A program made the translations under genes and the position numbers. This document shows, piece by piece, positions 2,558 through 16,788 of a stretch of DNA of 17,127 nucleotides (positions are counted from its first letter, which is position 1; every line of letters starts with the position of its first letter). The notes under the pieces were generated by a model. The model saw nothing but the letters and a program-made list of their open reading frames with translations, was not told the DNA's origin and did no database searches. This DNA is from a virus (taxonomy: Duplodnaviria; Heunggongvirae; Uroviricota; Caudoviricetes): the IMG/VR virus record IMGVR_UViG_2713896769_000015. One strand, given 5' to 3'.

Positions 2558-5111
<2,554 letters not shown>

Positions 5112-6377: not shown

Positions 6378-6744
6378 AAACAGCCATTCCACCATCAACG
6401 TGTGTTTTTGCATCTGAGGACATAATCAGAATCACCCGACCAACATCCGCAAGCTCAACGGATTCCCCCGTTTCACCATCAACGCCACAGAGATGGAGGC
6501 AGGTCAGAACTCTGATGCGCGTTAACGCGCCGGATGTTTCCTCACGAACATCATGAGCCGCGTTTTCCCTCTCCCGGATATCCATATTCATAACCTGTAC
6601 ATCATCGCCGGATGACTGCATTTCCTCTTCCCATTCTGCCACCCGCTGCGCTATCTCTGCGGCACTCCCGGATATATCCGGCTCACGCCCCAGAATCAGG
6701 GCCAGTTCATCAAGCCGTTTCAGATTTTGCTCTTTCGTTGCCAT
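6370..6744 (-). CDS. FI: DNA packaging / head completion protein FI (lambda gpFI-like)
   Basis: Start ATG at 6742-6744 preceded by SD agggggat; MATKEQNLKRLDELALILGRE... is acidic and lambda-FI-like. The track ORF begins further upstream at 6792, which would leave only 3 nt between it and the E stop, so I prefer the start at 6744. Confidence 0.75.
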   Translation of the reverse strand: MATKEQNLKRLDELALILGREPDISGSAAEIAQRVAEWEEEMQSSGDDVQVMNMDIRERENAAHDVREETSGALTRIRVLTCLHLCGVDGETGESVELADVGRVILIMSSDAKTHVDGGMAVYA

Positions 6745-6755
6745 ATCATCCCCCT

Positions 6756-6789
6756 GTGAAAAAAGACACGGGGGCATTTCGCCCCCGCT
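6756..6789 (-). terminator. Hairpin plus U-tract (intrinsic-terminator-like) in the E-FI intergenic spacer
   Basis: Minus-strand RNA reads gcgggggc-gaaat-gcccccgt followed by gtctttttt, i.e. a GC stem of 6-8 bp with a 5-nt loop and a U-run, 10-20 nt before the FI SD. Confidence 0.4.
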
Positions 6790-6795
6790 CACGGA

Positions 6796-7824
6796 TTATT
6801 TCACCTGTACCACCACAAACTCATCCGGGTCCGGCAACACCATCAGCGGCGCGGACTGCGTCATGGTAAATTCACGGGCGGGATCCCCTACCGTCAGCCA
6901 GTGTTTCGGATAACGGGAAGAGGCCACCACACCTTCGGACAACGCCTGCGCATCCTGAATGGCACCATAGCAACGAATGCCCTCTGCTGCCGTATTCCCC
7001 AGGACCAGCGAGCCCTCAGGCAGATAACGTTTTTCGGTACCGTCCTCTGCCACATAAGACGTTTTTGCCACCACAATGGCCAGATCGCCGTAATACCCTT
7101 TGAAGGACACCACCGCGCCCAGGTCTTTCACCGCTGTTTCGAGTTGCGAATTAGAGCCGCGACGGGTATCCAGTTTTTCGCGGAACAATTTAAAGCCATT
7201 CAGCAGACGCCAGACGGTACCGTCCATAATGGCAATATTCACAAGACCGCTGGCCTGGTCGCAGTAGAGGTCAAGATCATGTGTAGGATCGAACGTGTCA
7301 CGATCCTGTTTTGACCACTCCTTACCACTACCCTGAGTGATGTTATTCTTCGTCGACCTGCCAAAATCGACCTCAATTTTCTCGAACTGGTCTCCTTCCA
7401 TCGTATATTTGCCATACAGCACAGCATTTACCGCCTGCATTTCTTCCACCTGGACAATGGCGTGCTCTTCCTGTTTGAGGTTATCAGTGATGATACGCAG
7501 ACGACGGTAGGCCGGGTCGTTCAGCTGAGCCGGATCTTCACCGGGAAGACGCTCAACCGCCTGCTGGTAATTAAATTCGTGTTTCGGCTTGACGTAGCCC
7601 GGACGTAACACGCGGGTTTCACCACCACGATGACGCAGCACTTTTCCTTCAACAACCGGGGAAACATAGGCCGCCACCGGCGTTTTTCCGGTAATTTTGT
7701 CCAGCATCACCTCTTCGGTATGGAAATTCACCGTACGGCGGAAAAACAGCTCCAGAAACAGCGCACGAAATTTCACTTTTTGTTCGGTATAACCGAGTAA
7801 CTGGCGGGTCGTAAACAATCCCAT
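6796..7824 (-). CDS. E: Major capsid protein (lambda gpE-like)
   Basis: 342 aa with blocks KPKHEF, NITQGSGKEWSK, DTRRGSNSQLETAVKDLG and YPKHWLTVGDPAREFTMTQSAPLM shared with lambda gpE. SD aaggaa precedes the ATG at 7822-7824. Confidence 0.95.
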   Translation of the reverse strand: MGLFTTRQLLGYTEQKVKFRALFLELFFRRTVNFHTEEVMLDKITGKTPVAAYVSPVVEGKVLRHRGGETRVLRPGYVKPKHEFNYQQAVERLPGEDPAQLNDPAYRRLRIITDNLKQEEHAIVQVEEMQAVNAVLYGKYTMEGDQFEKIEVDFGRSTKNNITQGSGKEWSKQDRDTFDPTHDLDLYCDQASGLVNIAIMDGTVWRLLNGFKLFREKLDTRRGSNSQLETAVKDLGAVVSFKGYYGDLAIVVAKTSYVAEDGTEKRYLPEGSLVLGNTAAEGIRCYGAIQDAQALSEGVVASSRYPKHWLTVGDPAREFTMTQSAPLMVLPDPDEFVVVQVK

Positions 7825-7852
7825 AAATCAGTTCCTTTCATTCAGAAATCAG

Positions 7853-7874
7853 TCAGGCCACCGCGGTGGCCTGA
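7853..7874. other. Perfect 22-bp palindrome in the D-E intergenic spacer
   Basis: tcaggccaccgcggtggcctga equals its own reverse complement. It lies between the D stop (7882-7884) and the E start (7824) and has no adjacent U-tract. Confidence 0.6.
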
Positions 7875-7881
7875 TAACGTG

Positions 7882-8229
7882 TTACGGCAGCGCCGCGTGA
7901 CTCAGGGCACTGCCGGCAAAGGCGTTGGCCTTTTTGTGTTCATCCACACTTTCAGGCCAGCGGATTGCCTCCGTCGCAAAGGTCCCCGACTTGTAATAGG
8001 TCAGCGCCGTCTCTGTGCCTTCAAGCGGCAGTACCAGTATGCCAACCGCACTACCGGCTTTTTGTCCGTCCCAGACCACCAGTTTCCCGGTTGCCTCATC
8101 CAGCATCAGGGGCGTCAGTGCCGGTGTTGCCGAGGAAATCCCGCTGCTGCCTGTGGCGGTATGAGCCGGATCATTACCGGCAAAAATACGTACTTCCGCA
8201 CGCTGTTCAGTGATAGTTTTCGTCACCAT
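7882..8229 (-). CDS. D: Head decoration protein (lambda gpD-like)
   Basis: 115 aa, ...DPAHTATGSSGISSATPALTPLMLDEATGKLVVWDGQKAGSAVGILV...YYKSGTF...AFAG..., matching lambda gpD blocks. Strong SD caGGAGGt before the ATG at 8227-8229. Confidence 0.9.
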   Translation of the reverse strand: MVTKTITEQRAEVRIFAGNDPAHTATGSSGISSATPALTPLMLDEATGKLVVWDGQKAGSAVGILVLPLEGTETALTYYKSGTFATEAIRWPESVDEHKKANAFAGSALSHAALP

Positions 8230-8265
8230 ATTGTAAAAACCTCCTGTTGATGGTCAGCACTGGCT

Positions 8266-9771
8266 TCATGGCATGGCCATGAGCATTTTCACGTCCGCAT
8301 CACCGTCTGCTGACGTCTGTGGCACGCCACCCTGTACCGCTGCCGGTGAATGGTTCGCCATGATGCGTTCAAACATGGCGGTTGTGGATGCAGAGACCGG
8401 TTCTGCCTTACCTGATCCCGCAGCCAGCACAGCCCGGGCGCTCTCCACAGTCATTCCCGGGCAGGCAGCCAGCTGTTCAGCCTGCGCCTCAGCCCCTTTT
8501 GCCTCATCCAGTGCCATGATCTGATCACGGAGTGAGGGTCCGGCATCCGCCTGCGGTGAAGCAGCCAGGATCGGGCGGGCTTTTTCCACCGTCATCTCCG
8601 GCATCGCCGCCAGCGTTGCCGCCAGTTGTTCACGACCTTTCGCTTCTTCACACGCCATAATGCGATCGGCTTCACTCTGCGCGGATGCCACCGGCTGCTG
8701 TGGTGCCGCCGCGGCCAGAATCGCCCGGGCCTGTTCAACGCTCATGCCCTGTTGTCCTGCCAGCATCGTGGCAAGCTGTTCACGTCCTTTCGCTTCCTGG
8801 CATGTCAGGATCCCCATCACTCGCTGGTTCTCCTGCGCGGCGGCTTCCGTTGCAGTTAATTGCGGCATAGTGCCTCCTCTGACATTACTGTTCAGCGCCG
8901 TGGCCATCACACTGATGGCATCCGACGCATTGATTAATTCATCCGCCAGCCCGGCCTCAATGCCGGACTGACCTTCAAAAACGGCGGCCTCTGTTCCCGT
9001 GACAGCATCAACAGACAGACCGGTATACATCGCTACTTTTTCAGCAAACATCCGGCGCGCCGCATCAATGCGCTGTTGCATGTCCTGGCGAACCTCTGCC
9101 GGCAACGCTTCAAACTGATTGCCATCCACCTTGTGCGCCCCTGAGTAAATCAGCGTGATATCAACACCGGCCTGCGCCAGATGACCGGCATAGCTGACAT
9201 GGCTCATCATCACGCCAATGGAGCCGATACGGGATGTCTGGGTAACCAGCCGTCGGGAGCAGGCCGACGCCAGCAGCATGGCTGCAGAGCAGGCCGTGTC
9301 ATTGCACAGTGCCCAGACCGGCTTCTGCTGACGGAGGCGGTAAATCATGTCAGCGCAGTCAAACGCGCCGGCGGCCTGCCCGCCCGGACTGTCAATGTCC
9401 AGCAGTACGCCCCGCACCTGGCTATCCGCCATTGCCTGCTGAAGACAGGCGACAATGCCGTCATAGCCTGTCATTCCGGAAAATGGCCGCATACCCCCCA
9501 GCCGGTGCACCAGCGTGCCGGTCACCGGCAGTACAGCAATACCGTTCACCACCCGGTAAACACGGGCCGGTCGTTTACCTCCGGCCATGTACTCGTCCGT
9601 TTCAGCCAGCATTCCGGGAGCATCAAACTGTACCTGCTGTTGTGGTACCGAAAGACTTGATGCCCCCATCTCGCGCCCGAGCGCGCAAAAGAAAACCCGC
9701 GCATAGGCGGGCTCCAGAAGCAGCGGTTCATTGAATGCTGCGGCAATAATGTGTGAAAGATTACGTCTCAC
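8266..9771 (-). CDS. C: Head maturation protease / minor capsid protein C with C-terminal scaffold (Nu3-like) region; S49 peptidase family
   Basis: 501 aa, GTG start overlapping the end of B. Blocks AFNEPLLLEPAYARVFFCAL, NGIAVLPVTGTLV, SGMTGYDGI, KPVWALCNDTACSAAMLLASACSRRLVTQTSRIGSIGVMM and TLIYSGAHKVDGN match lambda gpC. The C-terminal third is low-complexity scaffold-like sequence with tandem repeats. Confidence 0.9.
   Translation of the reverse strand: MRRNLSHIIAAAFNEPLLLEPAYARVFFCALGREMGASSLSVPQQQVQFDAPGMLAETDEYMAGGKRPARVYRVVNGIAVLPVTGTLVHRLGGMRPFSGMTGYDGIVACLQQAMADSQVRGVLLDIDSPGGQAAGAFDCADMIYRLRQQKPVWALCNDTACSAAMLLASACSRRLVTQTSRIGSIGVMMSHVSYAGHLAQAGVDITLIYSGAHKVDGNQFEALPAEVRQDMQQRIDAARRMFAEKVAMYTGLSVDAVTGTEAAVFEGQSGIEAGLADELINASDAISVMATALNSNVRGGTMPQLTATEAAAQENQRVMGILTCQEAKGREQLATMLAGQQGMSVEQARAILAAAAPQQPVASAQSEADRIMACEEAKGREQLAATLAAMPEMTVEKARPILAASPQADAGPSLRDQIMALDEAKGAEAQAEQLAACPGMTVESARAVLAAGSGKAEPVSASTTAMFERIMANHSPAAVQGGVPQTSADGDADVKMLMAMP
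8362..8817 (-). repeat. Three tandem, diverged repeats of about 47-52 codons inside the 3' scaffold-encoding part of C
   Basis: Protein repeats begin at residues 319, 372 and 419 of the 501-aa ORF: MGILTCQEAKGREQLATMLAGQQGMSVEQARAILAAA..., MACEEAKGREQLAATLAAMPEMTVEKARPILAAS..., MALDEAKGAEAQAEQLAACPGMTVESARAVLAAG.... At DNA level, gccagttgttcacgacctttcgcttc (about 8623-8648) and gcaagctgttcacgtcctttcgcttc (about 8771-8796) are visibly related. Confidence 0.7.
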
Positions 9772-14725: not shown

Positions 14726-15274
14726 TCAGGCTTGAATACCTTTATCGAATCCCGGTAATAAAAACTGTCCCTGTCTCTCCAGACGTTCCAGCTTTGCAAG
14801 CAATTGAGGTTTTTTCGTTCTCCCCCAGCGATTGAGCAGACGGCCTGACATGCTGGCGACATCCTTCTCTTTCATGTACTCCAGCATTACGGCGTTACGT
14901 TCTGCTTCATAACTTTCGCTGTACTTACGGAGTTCTGCTGACATCCAGTTAAACGCATTGATATAGGCTTCTTTAACAGCATCGGCTTTTGCCCCGTTAA
15001 ATCCCATAACCAGCATAACGAAGCCACTAAAGTCCATGCGGTAGTAAATCTGTTTCTTGTCAAAAATACCTAAGTCATTGATTTTCTCGACGGCCCCAAA
15101 ATGGGTTGTCGAGAATTCCTCAGAACATCTCAAACATTTAATAGCCCTAATCACATGCTGATGGCGTTTACCAAATGCCCTGGCAATCTGGAAGGTGTCA
15201 GTTACCGGTTGACCTTCTGCTGCGGTAACTAACTGGCGAAAGTCGAAGTCATGATTCGCAATTAATTCATTCAT
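14726..15274 (-). CDS. rha: Phage regulatory protein Rha family (pRha domain)
   Basis: MNELIANHDFDFRQLVTAAEGQPVTDTFQIARAFGKRHQHVIRAIKCL...YYRMDFSGFVMLVMGFNGAKADAVKEAYINAFNWM... fits the pRha pattern (GKRH-[DQ]-x-V-[LI]-R, LVMGFxGxKA, FKEAYI). Start taken at ATG 15272-15274; the track ORF extends to a GTG at 15343. Confidence 0.7.
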   Translation of the reverse strand: MNELIANHDFDFRQLVTAAEGQPVTDTFQIARAFGKRHQHVIRAIKCLRCSEEFSTTHFGAVEKINDLGIFDKKQIYYRMDFSGFVMLVMGFNGAKADAVKEAYINAFNWMSAELRKYSESYEAERNAVMLEYMKEKDVASMSGRLLNRWGRTKKPQLLAKLERLERQGQFLLPGFDKGIQA

Positions 15275-15424
15275 GGCGTTGCCTGCTTCTTTGAAATGAA
15301 CCTTTGCCGCACAGGAAACCAGCCCACCGAGGCTCGCCAGCACTAACTGGTATCCTCAAAGGCCCATTCCAAAGGGTCAGGTTCGGTGTTTATTGTGCGC
15401 TGCGGTGCGCGGTGAAATACCGGT

Positions 15425-16670: not shown

Positions 16671-16711
16671 AAAGAAAAACAAAAAAGCCGCCAGTGTCAC
16701 CCACTGACGGC
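16671..16711 (-). terminator. Strong intrinsic terminator about 40 nt upstream of S (tR'-like)
   Basis: Minus-strand RNA GCCGUCAGUG-ggugA-CACUGGCGGC (10-bp stem, one G-U) followed by UUUUUUGUUUUUCUUU. Plus-strand hairpin at 16687-16711 with a-tract at 16671-16686. Confidence 0.6.
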
Positions 16712-16788
16712 CAACGCCGGGAGCCGTGATTATGGCATTCAGGCTCTGCTAAAAATGCCAGATAACATTCCGGCCTCCCCTGATTCAG

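What the first reader, a model, noticed from the sequence alone, without database searches (positions are those of the whole stretch)
7853..7874. Perfect 22-bp palindrome between decoration protein D and major capsid protein E
tcaggccaccgcggtggcctga is a perfect inverted repeat filling much of the 57-bp D-E spacer. On the late mRNA it forms a stable GC-rich hairpin that lacks a following U-tract, so it is not a classical terminator. Possible roles are mRNA processing or stability, setting the D:E expression ratio, or binding a dimeric protein.
Basis: seen in the sequence. Interest (0 to 1): 0.35.

Follow-up and report, generated by a model that had tools for sequence, protein, structure and literature searches.

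The report
Capsid-gene RNA hairpin, terminator-derived
The 22-base palindrome is real and folds into an RNA hairpin on the phage's late messenger; it is the phage-21 version of a terminator-shaped hairpin that nearly all lambda-type phages keep just upstream of their major capsid gene, so it is an ordinary kind of element, though what it does has not been tested.

Summary
TCAGGCCACCGCGGTGGCCTGA at 7853-7874 is a perfect palindrome in the 57-nt spacer between the D-like gene (shp, 7882-8229) and the E-like gene (gene 7, 6796-7824). Both genes lie on the minus strand of a phage-21-type prophage.

The palindrome is not an isolated oddity. Of 75 distinct D-E spacers from lambda-type head clusters, 95% carry a GC-rich hairpin 19-36 nt upstream of the E start codon. 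These clusters range from E. coli to Alphaproteobacteria, with E identity down to 28%.

Covariation supports the helix. It shows 94% pairing, 6 of 9 pairs changed on both sides, and 0 of 500 shuffles reaching the observed score. Nineteen G·U pairs occur on the mRNA-sense strand and no A·C, so the structure is selected as RNA and not as a DNA site.

Outside the phage-21 clade, including lambda itself, the hairpin is followed by a T-run and scores as an intrinsic terminator. The phage-21 version has the identical outer stem CAGGCC/GGCCTG and one compensatory G-C to A-U pair. It has lost the T-run and scores as a non-terminator. A second conserved hairpin follows E.

Most likely role (inferred): an intercistronic hairpin that Q-modified polymerase reads through and that acts after transcription as a decay barrier. 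It is a known kind of element, of low to moderate interest.

The parts
7853..7874 (-). Perfect 22-nt palindrome. On the late mRNA it forms a hairpin with a 9-bp stem (UCAGGCCAC/GUGGCCUGA) and a CGCG loop, about -17 kcal/mol.
   Evidence: The helix is supported by covariation in homologous spacers and by sense-strand-only G·U pairs.
7875..7881 (-). 7-nt linker between the D stop codon (TAA, 7884-7882) and the hairpin. GUUA can weakly extend the stem by pairing with UGAU downstream.
   Evidence: MFE structure. In relatives the stop-to-hairpin distance varies from 3 to 42 nt.
7825..7852 (-). Leader of the E-like gene. It holds the degenerate U-rich tail CUGAUUUCUG, a Shine-Dalgarno AGGA at 7836-7833, and two GAUUU (RN|WUU-type, RNase E-like) motifs at 7850-7846 and 7829-7825. 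The hairpin ends 28 nt before the AUG.
   Evidence: (RBS annotated in M81255). The segment UUUCUGAAU-AAAGGAAC is homologous to the leader downstream of a canonical terminator in L371.
7882..8229 (-). Head decoration gene (phage 21 shp, a lambda D homologue), 115 aa.
   Evidence: PF02924, E = 4.6e-25.
6796..7824 (-). Major capsid protein gene (phage 21 gene 7, a lambda E homologue), 342 aa.
   Evidence: PF03864.
6758..6788 (-). Second intercistronic hairpin directly after the E stop codon (CGGGGGC-GAAAU-GCCCCCG), followed by UGUCUUUUUUC. It ends about 23 nt before the FI-like start codon at 6744.
   Evidence: It is conserved in position across all clades, and lambda has UGGCCC-UUCG-GGGCCA in the same place.

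Best explanation
The palindrome encodes a cis-acting RNA hairpin in the long Q-dependent late transcript. It is the phage-21-clade allele of an ancient intercistronic element that lies between the decoration gene and the major capsid gene of lambda-type head operons. In most lineages that element has the full shape of an intrinsic terminator.

Shown here:
- The helix is conserved through compensatory changes.
- It is selected on the mRNA-sense strand.
- It keeps a tight distance to the E start codon.
- A second hairpin follows E.
- The phage-21 allele keeps, and strengthens, the stem but has lost the U-tract.

Inferred:
- Late transcription is carried out by Q-modified RNA polymerase, which ignores terminators. 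The hairpin therefore does not end transcription during lytic growth. It forms behind the polymerase and acts after transcription.
- The most likely action is as a barrier to 3'-to-5' exonucleases after endonucleolytic cleavage in the A/U-rich leader just downstream (GA|UUU, 3 nt after the stem). This would prolong the life of the D-containing segment. The second hairpin would do the same for the E segment.
- D and E are the two proteins needed in about 400 copies per head.
- In the phage-21 clade only this hairpin-dependent role would remain, because the termination-competent tail has decayed.
For: - Observation and fold.
- Positional conservation: 352 loci gave 80 unique D-E spacers. Of the 75 scored, 95% hold a perfect-stem hairpin of -7 kcal/mol or better and 68% one of -10 or better. 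Equal-length E-coding windows give 14% and 2.4%.
- The hairpin is still present in Alphaproteobacterial relatives with 28-29% E identity (L159, L160).
- Covariation on 26 distinct homologous hairpins: 94.4% of cells are paired against 83.3% in shuffles (0/500). Six of 9 pairs change on both sides. The covariation score is 0.423 against 0.222 (0/500), and slid controls reach at most 0.12.
- Pair 13-22 is G-C in 21 sequences and A-U in the five phage-21-clade sequences. The outer stem CAGGCC/GGCCTG is identical to that of L319/L353.
- Strand test: 19 G·U cells on the sense strand and 0 A·C cells.
- Terminator shape in relatives, d = +5 to +36, against d = -25 here. The stem here, at -16.8 kcal/mol, is stronger than all but one of the others (-7 to -15; L283 -19.5).
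- A second hairpin follows E in every clade, often without a U-tract.
- The two hairpin-bearing spacers (57 and 51 nt) are the longest among the head genes from the terminase genes through the U-like gene. The C-D spacer is 36 nt.
- The RNase E-like motif lies next to the stem.
Against: - There are no transcript-end, half-life or expression data for this locus. The decay-barrier role is pure inference.
- From my own recollection of Sampson et al. 1988 (PNAS), which I could not retrieve here, lambda late mRNA levels and decay are fairly uniform along the operon, and translation initiation sets the protein ratios. That would limit any stability effect to a modest size.
- The T-run is conserved in most lineages even though its sequence differs. 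This argues that real termination, or a U-rich leader, is selected there, which a pure decay barrier does not require.
- The hairpin keeps a fixed distance to the downstream start codon, not to the upstream stop codon. That links it to E rather than to D.
- Within the phage-21 clade the sequences are too similar to prove purifying selection on the stem. Some variants weaken it (G14 to T or C in about 50 loci; G16 to A in L085).
Confidence: 0.45

Rival explanations
1. It is a working, though weak, intrinsic terminator that serves as a fail-safe. Polymerase that has not been modified by Q would stop before it reaches the very efficiently translated capsid gene. Such polymerase could come from leak-through at the late-promoter terminator or from spurious promoters in the prophage. 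Q-modified polymerase would pass through.
For: Nearly all relatives have a canonical stem plus T-run at this spot with positive terminator scores. T-richness is kept while the tail sequence changes, which implies selection on the tail. The lenient scan lists the window's hairpin as terminator-like. The same idea is offered for P22-like phages in 10.1101/2020.10.05.325894.
Against: The window's own tail, CUGAUUUCUG, gives nT = 0.99 and d = -25, far below every terminator-like relative. E. coli RNA polymerase generally needs the proximal U-tract. There is no hairpin upstream of D, which is translated as heavily as E. Several of the E-downstream hairpins also lack U-tracts.
Confidence: 0.22
2. 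It is a 5' element of the capsid-gene message. A hairpin held about 20-30 nt upstream of the AUG, next to a U/A-rich single-stranded stretch, would promote E translation (ribosome standby or S1 loading). Alternatively it would protect a processed E mRNA 5' end.
For: The hairpin-to-AUG distance is tight: 19-21 nt in some 25 lambda-type spacers, 28 nt in the 21-type and 22-36 nt in others. The stop-to-hairpin distance varies from 3 to 42 nt. The hairpin and leader also co-segregate with E across D/E mosaic joints. The E-downstream hairpin sits about 20-23 nt before the FI start in both lambda and this window.
Against: In silico, deleting the hairpin or scrambling either arm leaves the predicted accessibility of the E initiation region unchanged (0.43 against 0.43-0.48). 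A 5'-protective hairpin must lie at the very 5' end, which would require a cleavage upstream of the stem, and no motif was seen there. There are no experimental data.
Confidence: 0.18
3. It is a DNA-level palindrome, either the binding site of a dimeric protein or a cruciform or recombination signal at the D/E module boundary.
For: It is perfectly symmetric in this window, including the central CCGCGG. D and E modules do recombine within this spacer; for example, L371 has E at 95% but D at 75% identity.
Against: Homologues keep the pairing, not the sequence. Nineteen G·U and no A·C cells mean that the complementary strand, or duplex cruciform arms, would carry mismatches. The central bases vary freely among close relatives. 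The palindrome occurs only in this context, in all 120 retrieved exact matches.
Confidence: 0.03
4. It is a neutral relic in the phage-21 clade: a former terminator that has lost its tail and is simply decaying.
For: The U-tract is lost. The apical pair and some stem positions are polymorphic in the clade. The prophage in this window is itself interrupted by an IS30 element.
Against: The stem is stronger, not weaker, than in almost all terminator-bearing relatives, and it carries a compensatory G-C to A-U change. The lower 8 bp are intact in almost all of several hundred loci. The locus is present in 1865 of 5426 complete E. coli genomes.
Confidence: 0.1

Closest known systems
Intrinsic (Rho-independent) terminators inside antiterminated phage late operons, such as the lambda D-E and E-FI hairpins and the P22/L intra-operon terminators
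   Same: The position is between cistrons of a Q-dependent late operon. The stem-loop is GC-rich. It is directly homologous to terminator-shaped hairpins of relatives, sharing the outer stem CAGGCC/GGCCTG with L319/L353, and it occupies the same slot as lambda's GGCCGC-CUGU-GCGGC-U7.
   Different: The U-tract is reduced to CUGAUUUCUG, so the score is well below the terminator threshold. The stem is longer and stronger, and it is a perfect 22-nt palindrome.
Intercistronic mRNA-stabilising stem-loops, such as the REP hairpin between malE and malF and the hairpin in the puf operon of Rhodobacter (from established knowledge)
   Same: A stable hairpin sits 3' of a highly expressed cistron within a polycistronic mRNA, with no need to terminate transcription. 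A/U-rich single-stranded RNA lies next to it and would suit RNase E.
   Different: No transcript-end or half-life data exist here. It is not a dispersed repeat like REP. It tracks the downstream gene's start codon rather than the upstream stop codon.
T7 T-phi terminator and RNase III 3' hairpins downstream of capsid gene 10 (from established knowledge; the use of inefficient terminators in T7 is noted in PMC9163698)
   Same: Stem-loops flank the most abundantly needed structural gene and are thought to balance expression within a long late transcript.
   Different: T7 uses its own polymerase and true partial termination or RNase III cleavage. The stem here is only 9 bp, too short for RNase III, and transcription is antiterminated.

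Membership tests
Intrinsic (Rho-independent) terminator | GC-rich stem-loop of about 5-12 bp with a short loop | tested here: met
   9-bp stem with 6 G-C pairs and a 4-nt loop, -16.8 kcal/mol.
Intrinsic (Rho-independent) terminator | Run of U (about 7-9, especially the proximal 3-5) immediately 3' of the stem | tested here: not met
   The tail is CUGAUUUCUGAAUGA, giving nT = 0.99 and d = -25. Relatives score nT 2.3-4.6 and d = +5 to +36 (the scoring rule was recalled from d'Aubenton-Carafa et al. 1990). The tail passes only the lenient 5-of-8 T rule.
Intrinsic (Rho-independent) terminator | Releases transcripts in vitro or in vivo | not testable with these tools
   Needs single-round transcription or Term-seq.
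Conserved D-E intercistronic hairpin of lambda-type head operons (family defined in this work) | Lies between the decoration-protein gene and the major-capsid gene, 19-36 nt upstream of the capsid gene's AUG | tested here: met
   The hairpin ends 28 nt before the AUG. The same arrangement is seen in 75 scored unique spacers.
Conserved D-E intercistronic hairpin of lambda-type head operons (family defined in this work) | Helix maintained by compensatory and wobble changes on the mRNA-sense strand | tested here: met
   6 of 9 pairs change on both sides, 0 of 500 shuffles reach the score, and there are 19 G·U against 0 A·C cells.
mRNA-stabilising intercistronic hairpin (3'-exonuclease barrier) | Upstream mRNA segment accumulates with 3' ends at the hairpin, and removing the hairpin shortens its half-life | not testable with these tools
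   No transcriptome data are accessible. Only the position and the adjacent GA|UUU motif are shown.
REP/BIME-type dispersed palindromes | Many dispersed copies of one consensus in different genomic contexts | tested here: not met
   There is a single copy in the window. All 120 retrieved exact matches in IMG/VR lie in the same D-E context.
RNase III processing site | About 20 bp or more of largely continuous double-stranded RNA | tested here: not met
   The stem is 9 bp, or 13 bp with a weak bulged extension.
Palindromic DNA operator for a dimeric protein | Half-site sequence conserved as DNA, with symmetry equal on both strands | tested here: not met
   The sequence turns over while the pairing is kept. 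G·U pairs occur on one strand only, and the centre varies.
Any Rfam family | Covariance-model match | tested here: not met
   No match at the hairpin even at E <= 10.

The most novel reading that the evidence does not exclude
The two hairpins that bracket the major capsid gene would form a conserved post-transcriptional 'expression bracket' of lambda-type head operons, reaching from Gamma- to Alphaproteobacteria. Its essential function would be hairpin-dependent, through transcript processing, stability or ribosome loading, and independent of termination. The phage-21 allele has naturally lost the U-tract but kept a reinforced stem. It would then be the natural separation-of-function variant that shows what intra-operon 'terminators' in antiterminated phage operons are really for.
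Probability: 0.3. Interest if true: 0.45.

Novelty: new member of a known kind. Interest (0 to 1): 0.3.

Why it matters
Intrinsic-terminator-like hairpins inside antiterminated phage late operons have been noticed for decades, but their purpose is still described as unknown.

This locus shows that one such hairpin is kept at the same spot, just upstream of the major capsid gene, across very distant phages. It is kept by compensatory evolution on the mRNA strand.

One very common E. coli prophage lineage, present in about a third of complete genomes, carries a version that keeps the stem but not the U-tract. That gives a simple way to separate termination from hairpin-only functions. One could swap or mutate the lambda and phage-21 alleles and then measure D/E output, RNA ends and burst size.

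The practical value is modest. It would allow better annotation of lambdoid late operons and give a candidate insulating or stabilising part for engineered phage and display vectors based on D/E.

Tried and rejected
- Rfam scan of 6600-8400 at E <= 10 found nothing at the hairpin.
- The dispersed-repeat (REP-like) idea is rejected. All exact copies are in the same context.
- An RNase III site is rejected because the stem is too short.
- The RBS-insulation model is not supported. Predicted accessibility of the E initiation region is unchanged when the hairpin is deleted or scrambled.
- DNA-protein binding or a cruciform is disfavoured by the strand-asymmetric wobble pairs.
- An early note that the L085 variant was compensatory was wrong. 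C6 to U keeps a wobble pair, but G16 to A breaks a pair (corrected).
- My automatic D-stop finder mis-set four spacers (L005, L215, L187, L298). L215, L187 and L298 were left out of the spacer statistics; L005 was additionally scored.
- Nine of ten allowed literature searches found no description of a D-E or shp-gene 7 hairpin.
- The lambda ribosome-profiling paper (Liu et al. 2013) could not be retrieved, and a title-phrase search for Sampson et al. 1988 did not retrieve it. Statements about them rest on memory and are marked as such.
- GenBank and RefSeq records (M81255, OL657228, NC_001416) annotate no feature at the hairpin.
- Within-clade covariation could not be tested. Phage-21-clade sequences are 95-100% identical and show only single changes.

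Full report
**1. Observation**

Window 7853-7874 reads TCAGGCCACCGCGGTGGCCTGA, a perfect 22-bp palindrome. It is unique in the window even allowing three mismatches, and none appeared in 200 dinucleotide-preserving shuffles.

The flanking ORFs are on the minus strand.
- 7882-8229 is a 115-aa head-decoration protein (Pfam HDPD).
- 6796-7824 is a 342-aa major capsid protein (PF03864).

The region is 98% identical to phage 21 shp/gene 7 (M81255, OL657228). The window is therefore a phage-21-type (Jouyvirus-like) prophage late operon, not lambda itself. None of the database records annotates a feature at the palindrome.

As RNA the palindrome forms a 9-bp stem with a CGCG loop. Stem pair probabilities are 0.93-0.997 within a 351-nt context.

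**2. Close relatives**

In 82 close relatives from IMG/VR the palindrome is present in almost all.
- Variants are single changes, concentrated at the apex. The loop varies (CGCG to UGCG, CGUG, CAUG, CACG), and the closing pair G14 changes to U or C.
- A few changes fall in the lower stem. Two of them keep a wobble pair.
In the one exception (L384) an IS element is inserted 7 nt downstream.
- The junction occurs in 1865 of 5426 complete E. coli genomes.

The palindrome is therefore locus-specific and very common, not a dispersed repeat.

**3. Wider relatives**

Using capsid-protein homologues I collected 352 loci with an E start codon and 80 unique D-E spacers.
- Apart from a Providencia type with a 26-nt spacer (L087) and one Glaciecola locus with a very short D-E gap (L131, inspected separately), essentially every spacer contains a GC-rich hairpin.
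- Of the 75 scored spacers, 95% have a perfect-stem hairpin of -7 kcal/mol or better and 68% one of -10 or better. Among 1025 equal-length windows in E coding sequence the figures are 14% and 2.4%.
- The hairpin persists in Serratia, Buttiauxella, Aeromonadaceae, Amphritea, Halopseudomonas, Ectopseudomonas and Parashewanella. It is also found in Alphaproteobacteria (Methylorubrum and a Lichenihabitans MAG) whose capsid proteins are only 28-29% identical.
- In lambda the spacer reads ...CUAAAGGCCGC-CUGU-GCGGC-UUUUUUU-ACGGGAUUUUUUU-AUG.

**4. Terminator shape**

I scored stem energy and T-tail with the d'Aubenton-Carafa rule, which I recalled from memory.
- Nearly all hairpins outside the phage-21 clade are terminator-like, with d = +5 to +36 and nT = 2.3-4.6.
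- The window's hairpin has one of the strongest stems (-16.8 kcal/mol) but a degenerate tail (CUGAUUUCUG, nT = 0.99) and d = -25.
- A lenient consensus scan still lists it as terminator-like.

The phage-21 hairpin is clearly homologous to the terminator-type ones.
- It shares the 5' flank and the outer stem (AUCAGGCC...GGCCUG) with L319/L353/L339.
- It differs by one compensatory pair (G-C to A-U), the loop and the tail.
- The leader UUUCUGAAU-AAAGGAAC downstream is homologous to the leader that follows a canonical terminator in L371.

**5. Is the structure selected, and on which strand?**

I made a MAFFT alignment of 26 distinct homologous hairpins and tested it with the 9-bp helix.
- 94.4% of cells are paired, against 83.3% in shuffles (0 of 500 shuffles reach the observed value).
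- Six of 9 pairs show changes on both sides.
- The covariation score is 0.423 against 0.222 (0 of 500). Slid-partner controls reach at most 0.12.
- Caveat: the outermost pairs partly reflect A-tract/T-tract composition.

The mRNA-sense strand shows 19 G·U cells and no A·C cells. On the opposite strand, or in a DNA cruciform, those 19 cells would be mismatches. The helix is therefore selected as RNA on the late transcript. This, together with the free variation of the central bases, argues against a DNA site for a dimeric protein.

**6. Anatomy around it**

- The hairpin-to-AUG distance is tightly kept: 19-21 nt in about 25 lambda-type spacers, 28 nt here and 22-36 nt elsewhere.
- The stop-to-hairpin distance varies from 3 to 42 nt. 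D/E mosaic joints fall upstream of the hairpin. The element therefore travels with the E leader.
- A second hairpin lies 3-22 nt after the E stop codon in every clade. Here it is 6788-6768, CGGGGGC-GAAAU-GCCCCCG followed by UGUCUUUUUUC. In lambda it is UGGCCC-UUCG-GGGCCA. Many of these second hairpins lack a U-tract.
- The two hairpin-bearing spacers (57 and 51 nt) are the longest among the head genes from the terminase genes through the U-like gene. The C-D spacer is 36 nt, and the other junctions overlap or are at most 14 nt.
- Two GAUUU motifs of the RNase E type (RN|WUU, recalled from memory) lie 3 nt after the stem and 5 nt before the AUG.

**7. Mechanism**

Shown here: a conserved, covarying, sense-strand RNA hairpin that is homologous to terminator-shaped hairpins, has lost the U-tract in this clade, and has a partner hairpin after E.

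From established knowledge: lambdoid late operons are transcribed by Q-modified polymerase, which reads through terminators. D and E are the most abundant head proteins.

Inferred: during lytic growth the hairpin does not terminate. It forms in the transcript and acts after transcription, most plausibly as a 3'-exonuclease barrier after cleavage in the adjacent A/U-rich leader. I give this about 0.45.

Rivals:
- A fail-safe terminator against non-Q polymerase (0.22). The conserved T-runs of relatives support it. This copy's poor tail weakens it.
- A 5' element of the E message that aids translation or 5' protection (0.18). The fixed distance to the AUG supports it. The unchanged predicted accessibility of the initiation region in silico does not.
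- A neutral relic (0.10).
- A DNA-level site (0.03).

My recollection that lambda late mRNA levels are roughly uniform (Sampson et al. 1988, not retrievable here) cautions that any stability effect may be small.

**8. Comparison with what is known**

Intra-operon terminators in lambdoid late operons are recognised, and their roles are said to be unknown (10.1101/2020.10.05.325894). Inefficient terminators that balance phage gene expression are known from T7 (noted in PMC9163698). Intercistronic stabilising hairpins are textbook cases (malE-malF REP, the puf operon).

The palindrome fails the U-tract criterion of an intrinsic terminator. It also fails the defining features of REP elements, RNase III sites and DNA operators, and it matches no Rfam family.

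I file it as a new member of a known kind: a terminator-derived intercistronic hairpin. The deep positional conservation with covariation, and the natural U-tract-less allele, are the only mildly new points.

**9. Verdict**

The element is an ordinary class of feature with an untested function. Interest is 0.3.

Noticed in passing
window 6758-6788 (-): A second GC-rich hairpin (CGGGGGC-GAAAU-GCCCCCG followed by UGUCUUUUUUC) lies directly after the capsid-gene stop codon and about 23 nt before the FI-like start. It is conserved in position in all clades, including lambda, often without a U-tract. The capsid gene is therefore bracketed by hairpins.
   Followed up: partly
window 3045-4196 (+): A 383-aa IS30-family transposase (HTH_38 + rve) sits on the opposite strand inside the late operon, between the head-tail genes and the V-like tail tube gene (1798-2550, -). 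The prophage late operon is interrupted and the prophage is probably defective.
   Followed up: partly
L498 1490-2200 (E. coli EC190329, NZ_CP142949); also L384 and L033: An IS200C element (Y1 transposase) is inserted 7-8 nt downstream of the hairpin in the D-E spacer, in the same orientation as the late genes. Its right-end hairpin plus T-run (CCUCCGGC-UAU-GCCGGAGG-AUAUUUAUUUU) ends up about 25 nt before the capsid AUG, in effect replacing the native hairpin at that position. It is seen on three different contigs, which suggests a preferred target next to the hairpin.
   Followed up: partly
L092-L107, L126, L128, L132, L135-L158 (genome-contig hits): Sequences identical or nearly identical to lambda D-E occur on short, low-coverage contigs of unrelated organisms (Neobacillus, Kitasatospora, Bradyrhizobium, Akkermansia, Prevotella and others). 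This is almost certainly lambda DNA contamination or spike-in in those assemblies.
   Followed up: no
MT713136.1 250152-250377 (Aeromonas phage AP1, hit H21): A 254-kb Aeromonas phage record carries a 226-bp stretch 98% identical to the E. coli phage-21-type capsid gene near its end. This looks like an assembly chimera or contamination.
   Followed up: no
window 14726-15343 (-): A Rha/ORF11CD3-domain regulatory (antirepressor-like) gene lies between the lysis genes and the terminase genes (probable cos region), a moron-like insertion in the late operon.
   Followed up: no
window 16686-16712 (-): The best terminator-like site of the window (11-bp stem GGCCGUCAGUG/CACUGGCGGCU followed by UUUUUGUUUU) lies upstream of the lysis genes. 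It is possibly the late-promoter-proximal terminator (tR'-like) that Q overrides.
   Followed up: no
window 7825-7852 (-): The 8-nt string ACUGAUUU occurs twice in the 28-nt E leader, once right after the hairpin and once right before the AUG. Its significance is unknown and it may be chance.
   Followed up: no
L001 950-1344 (M81255 5542-5936): The depositors of phage 21 annotated three 'Tri box' repeats of about 105-115 nt, of unknown function, inside scaffold gene 6, upstream of shp. The homologous region in the window (about 8400-8800) was not examined.
   Followed up: no
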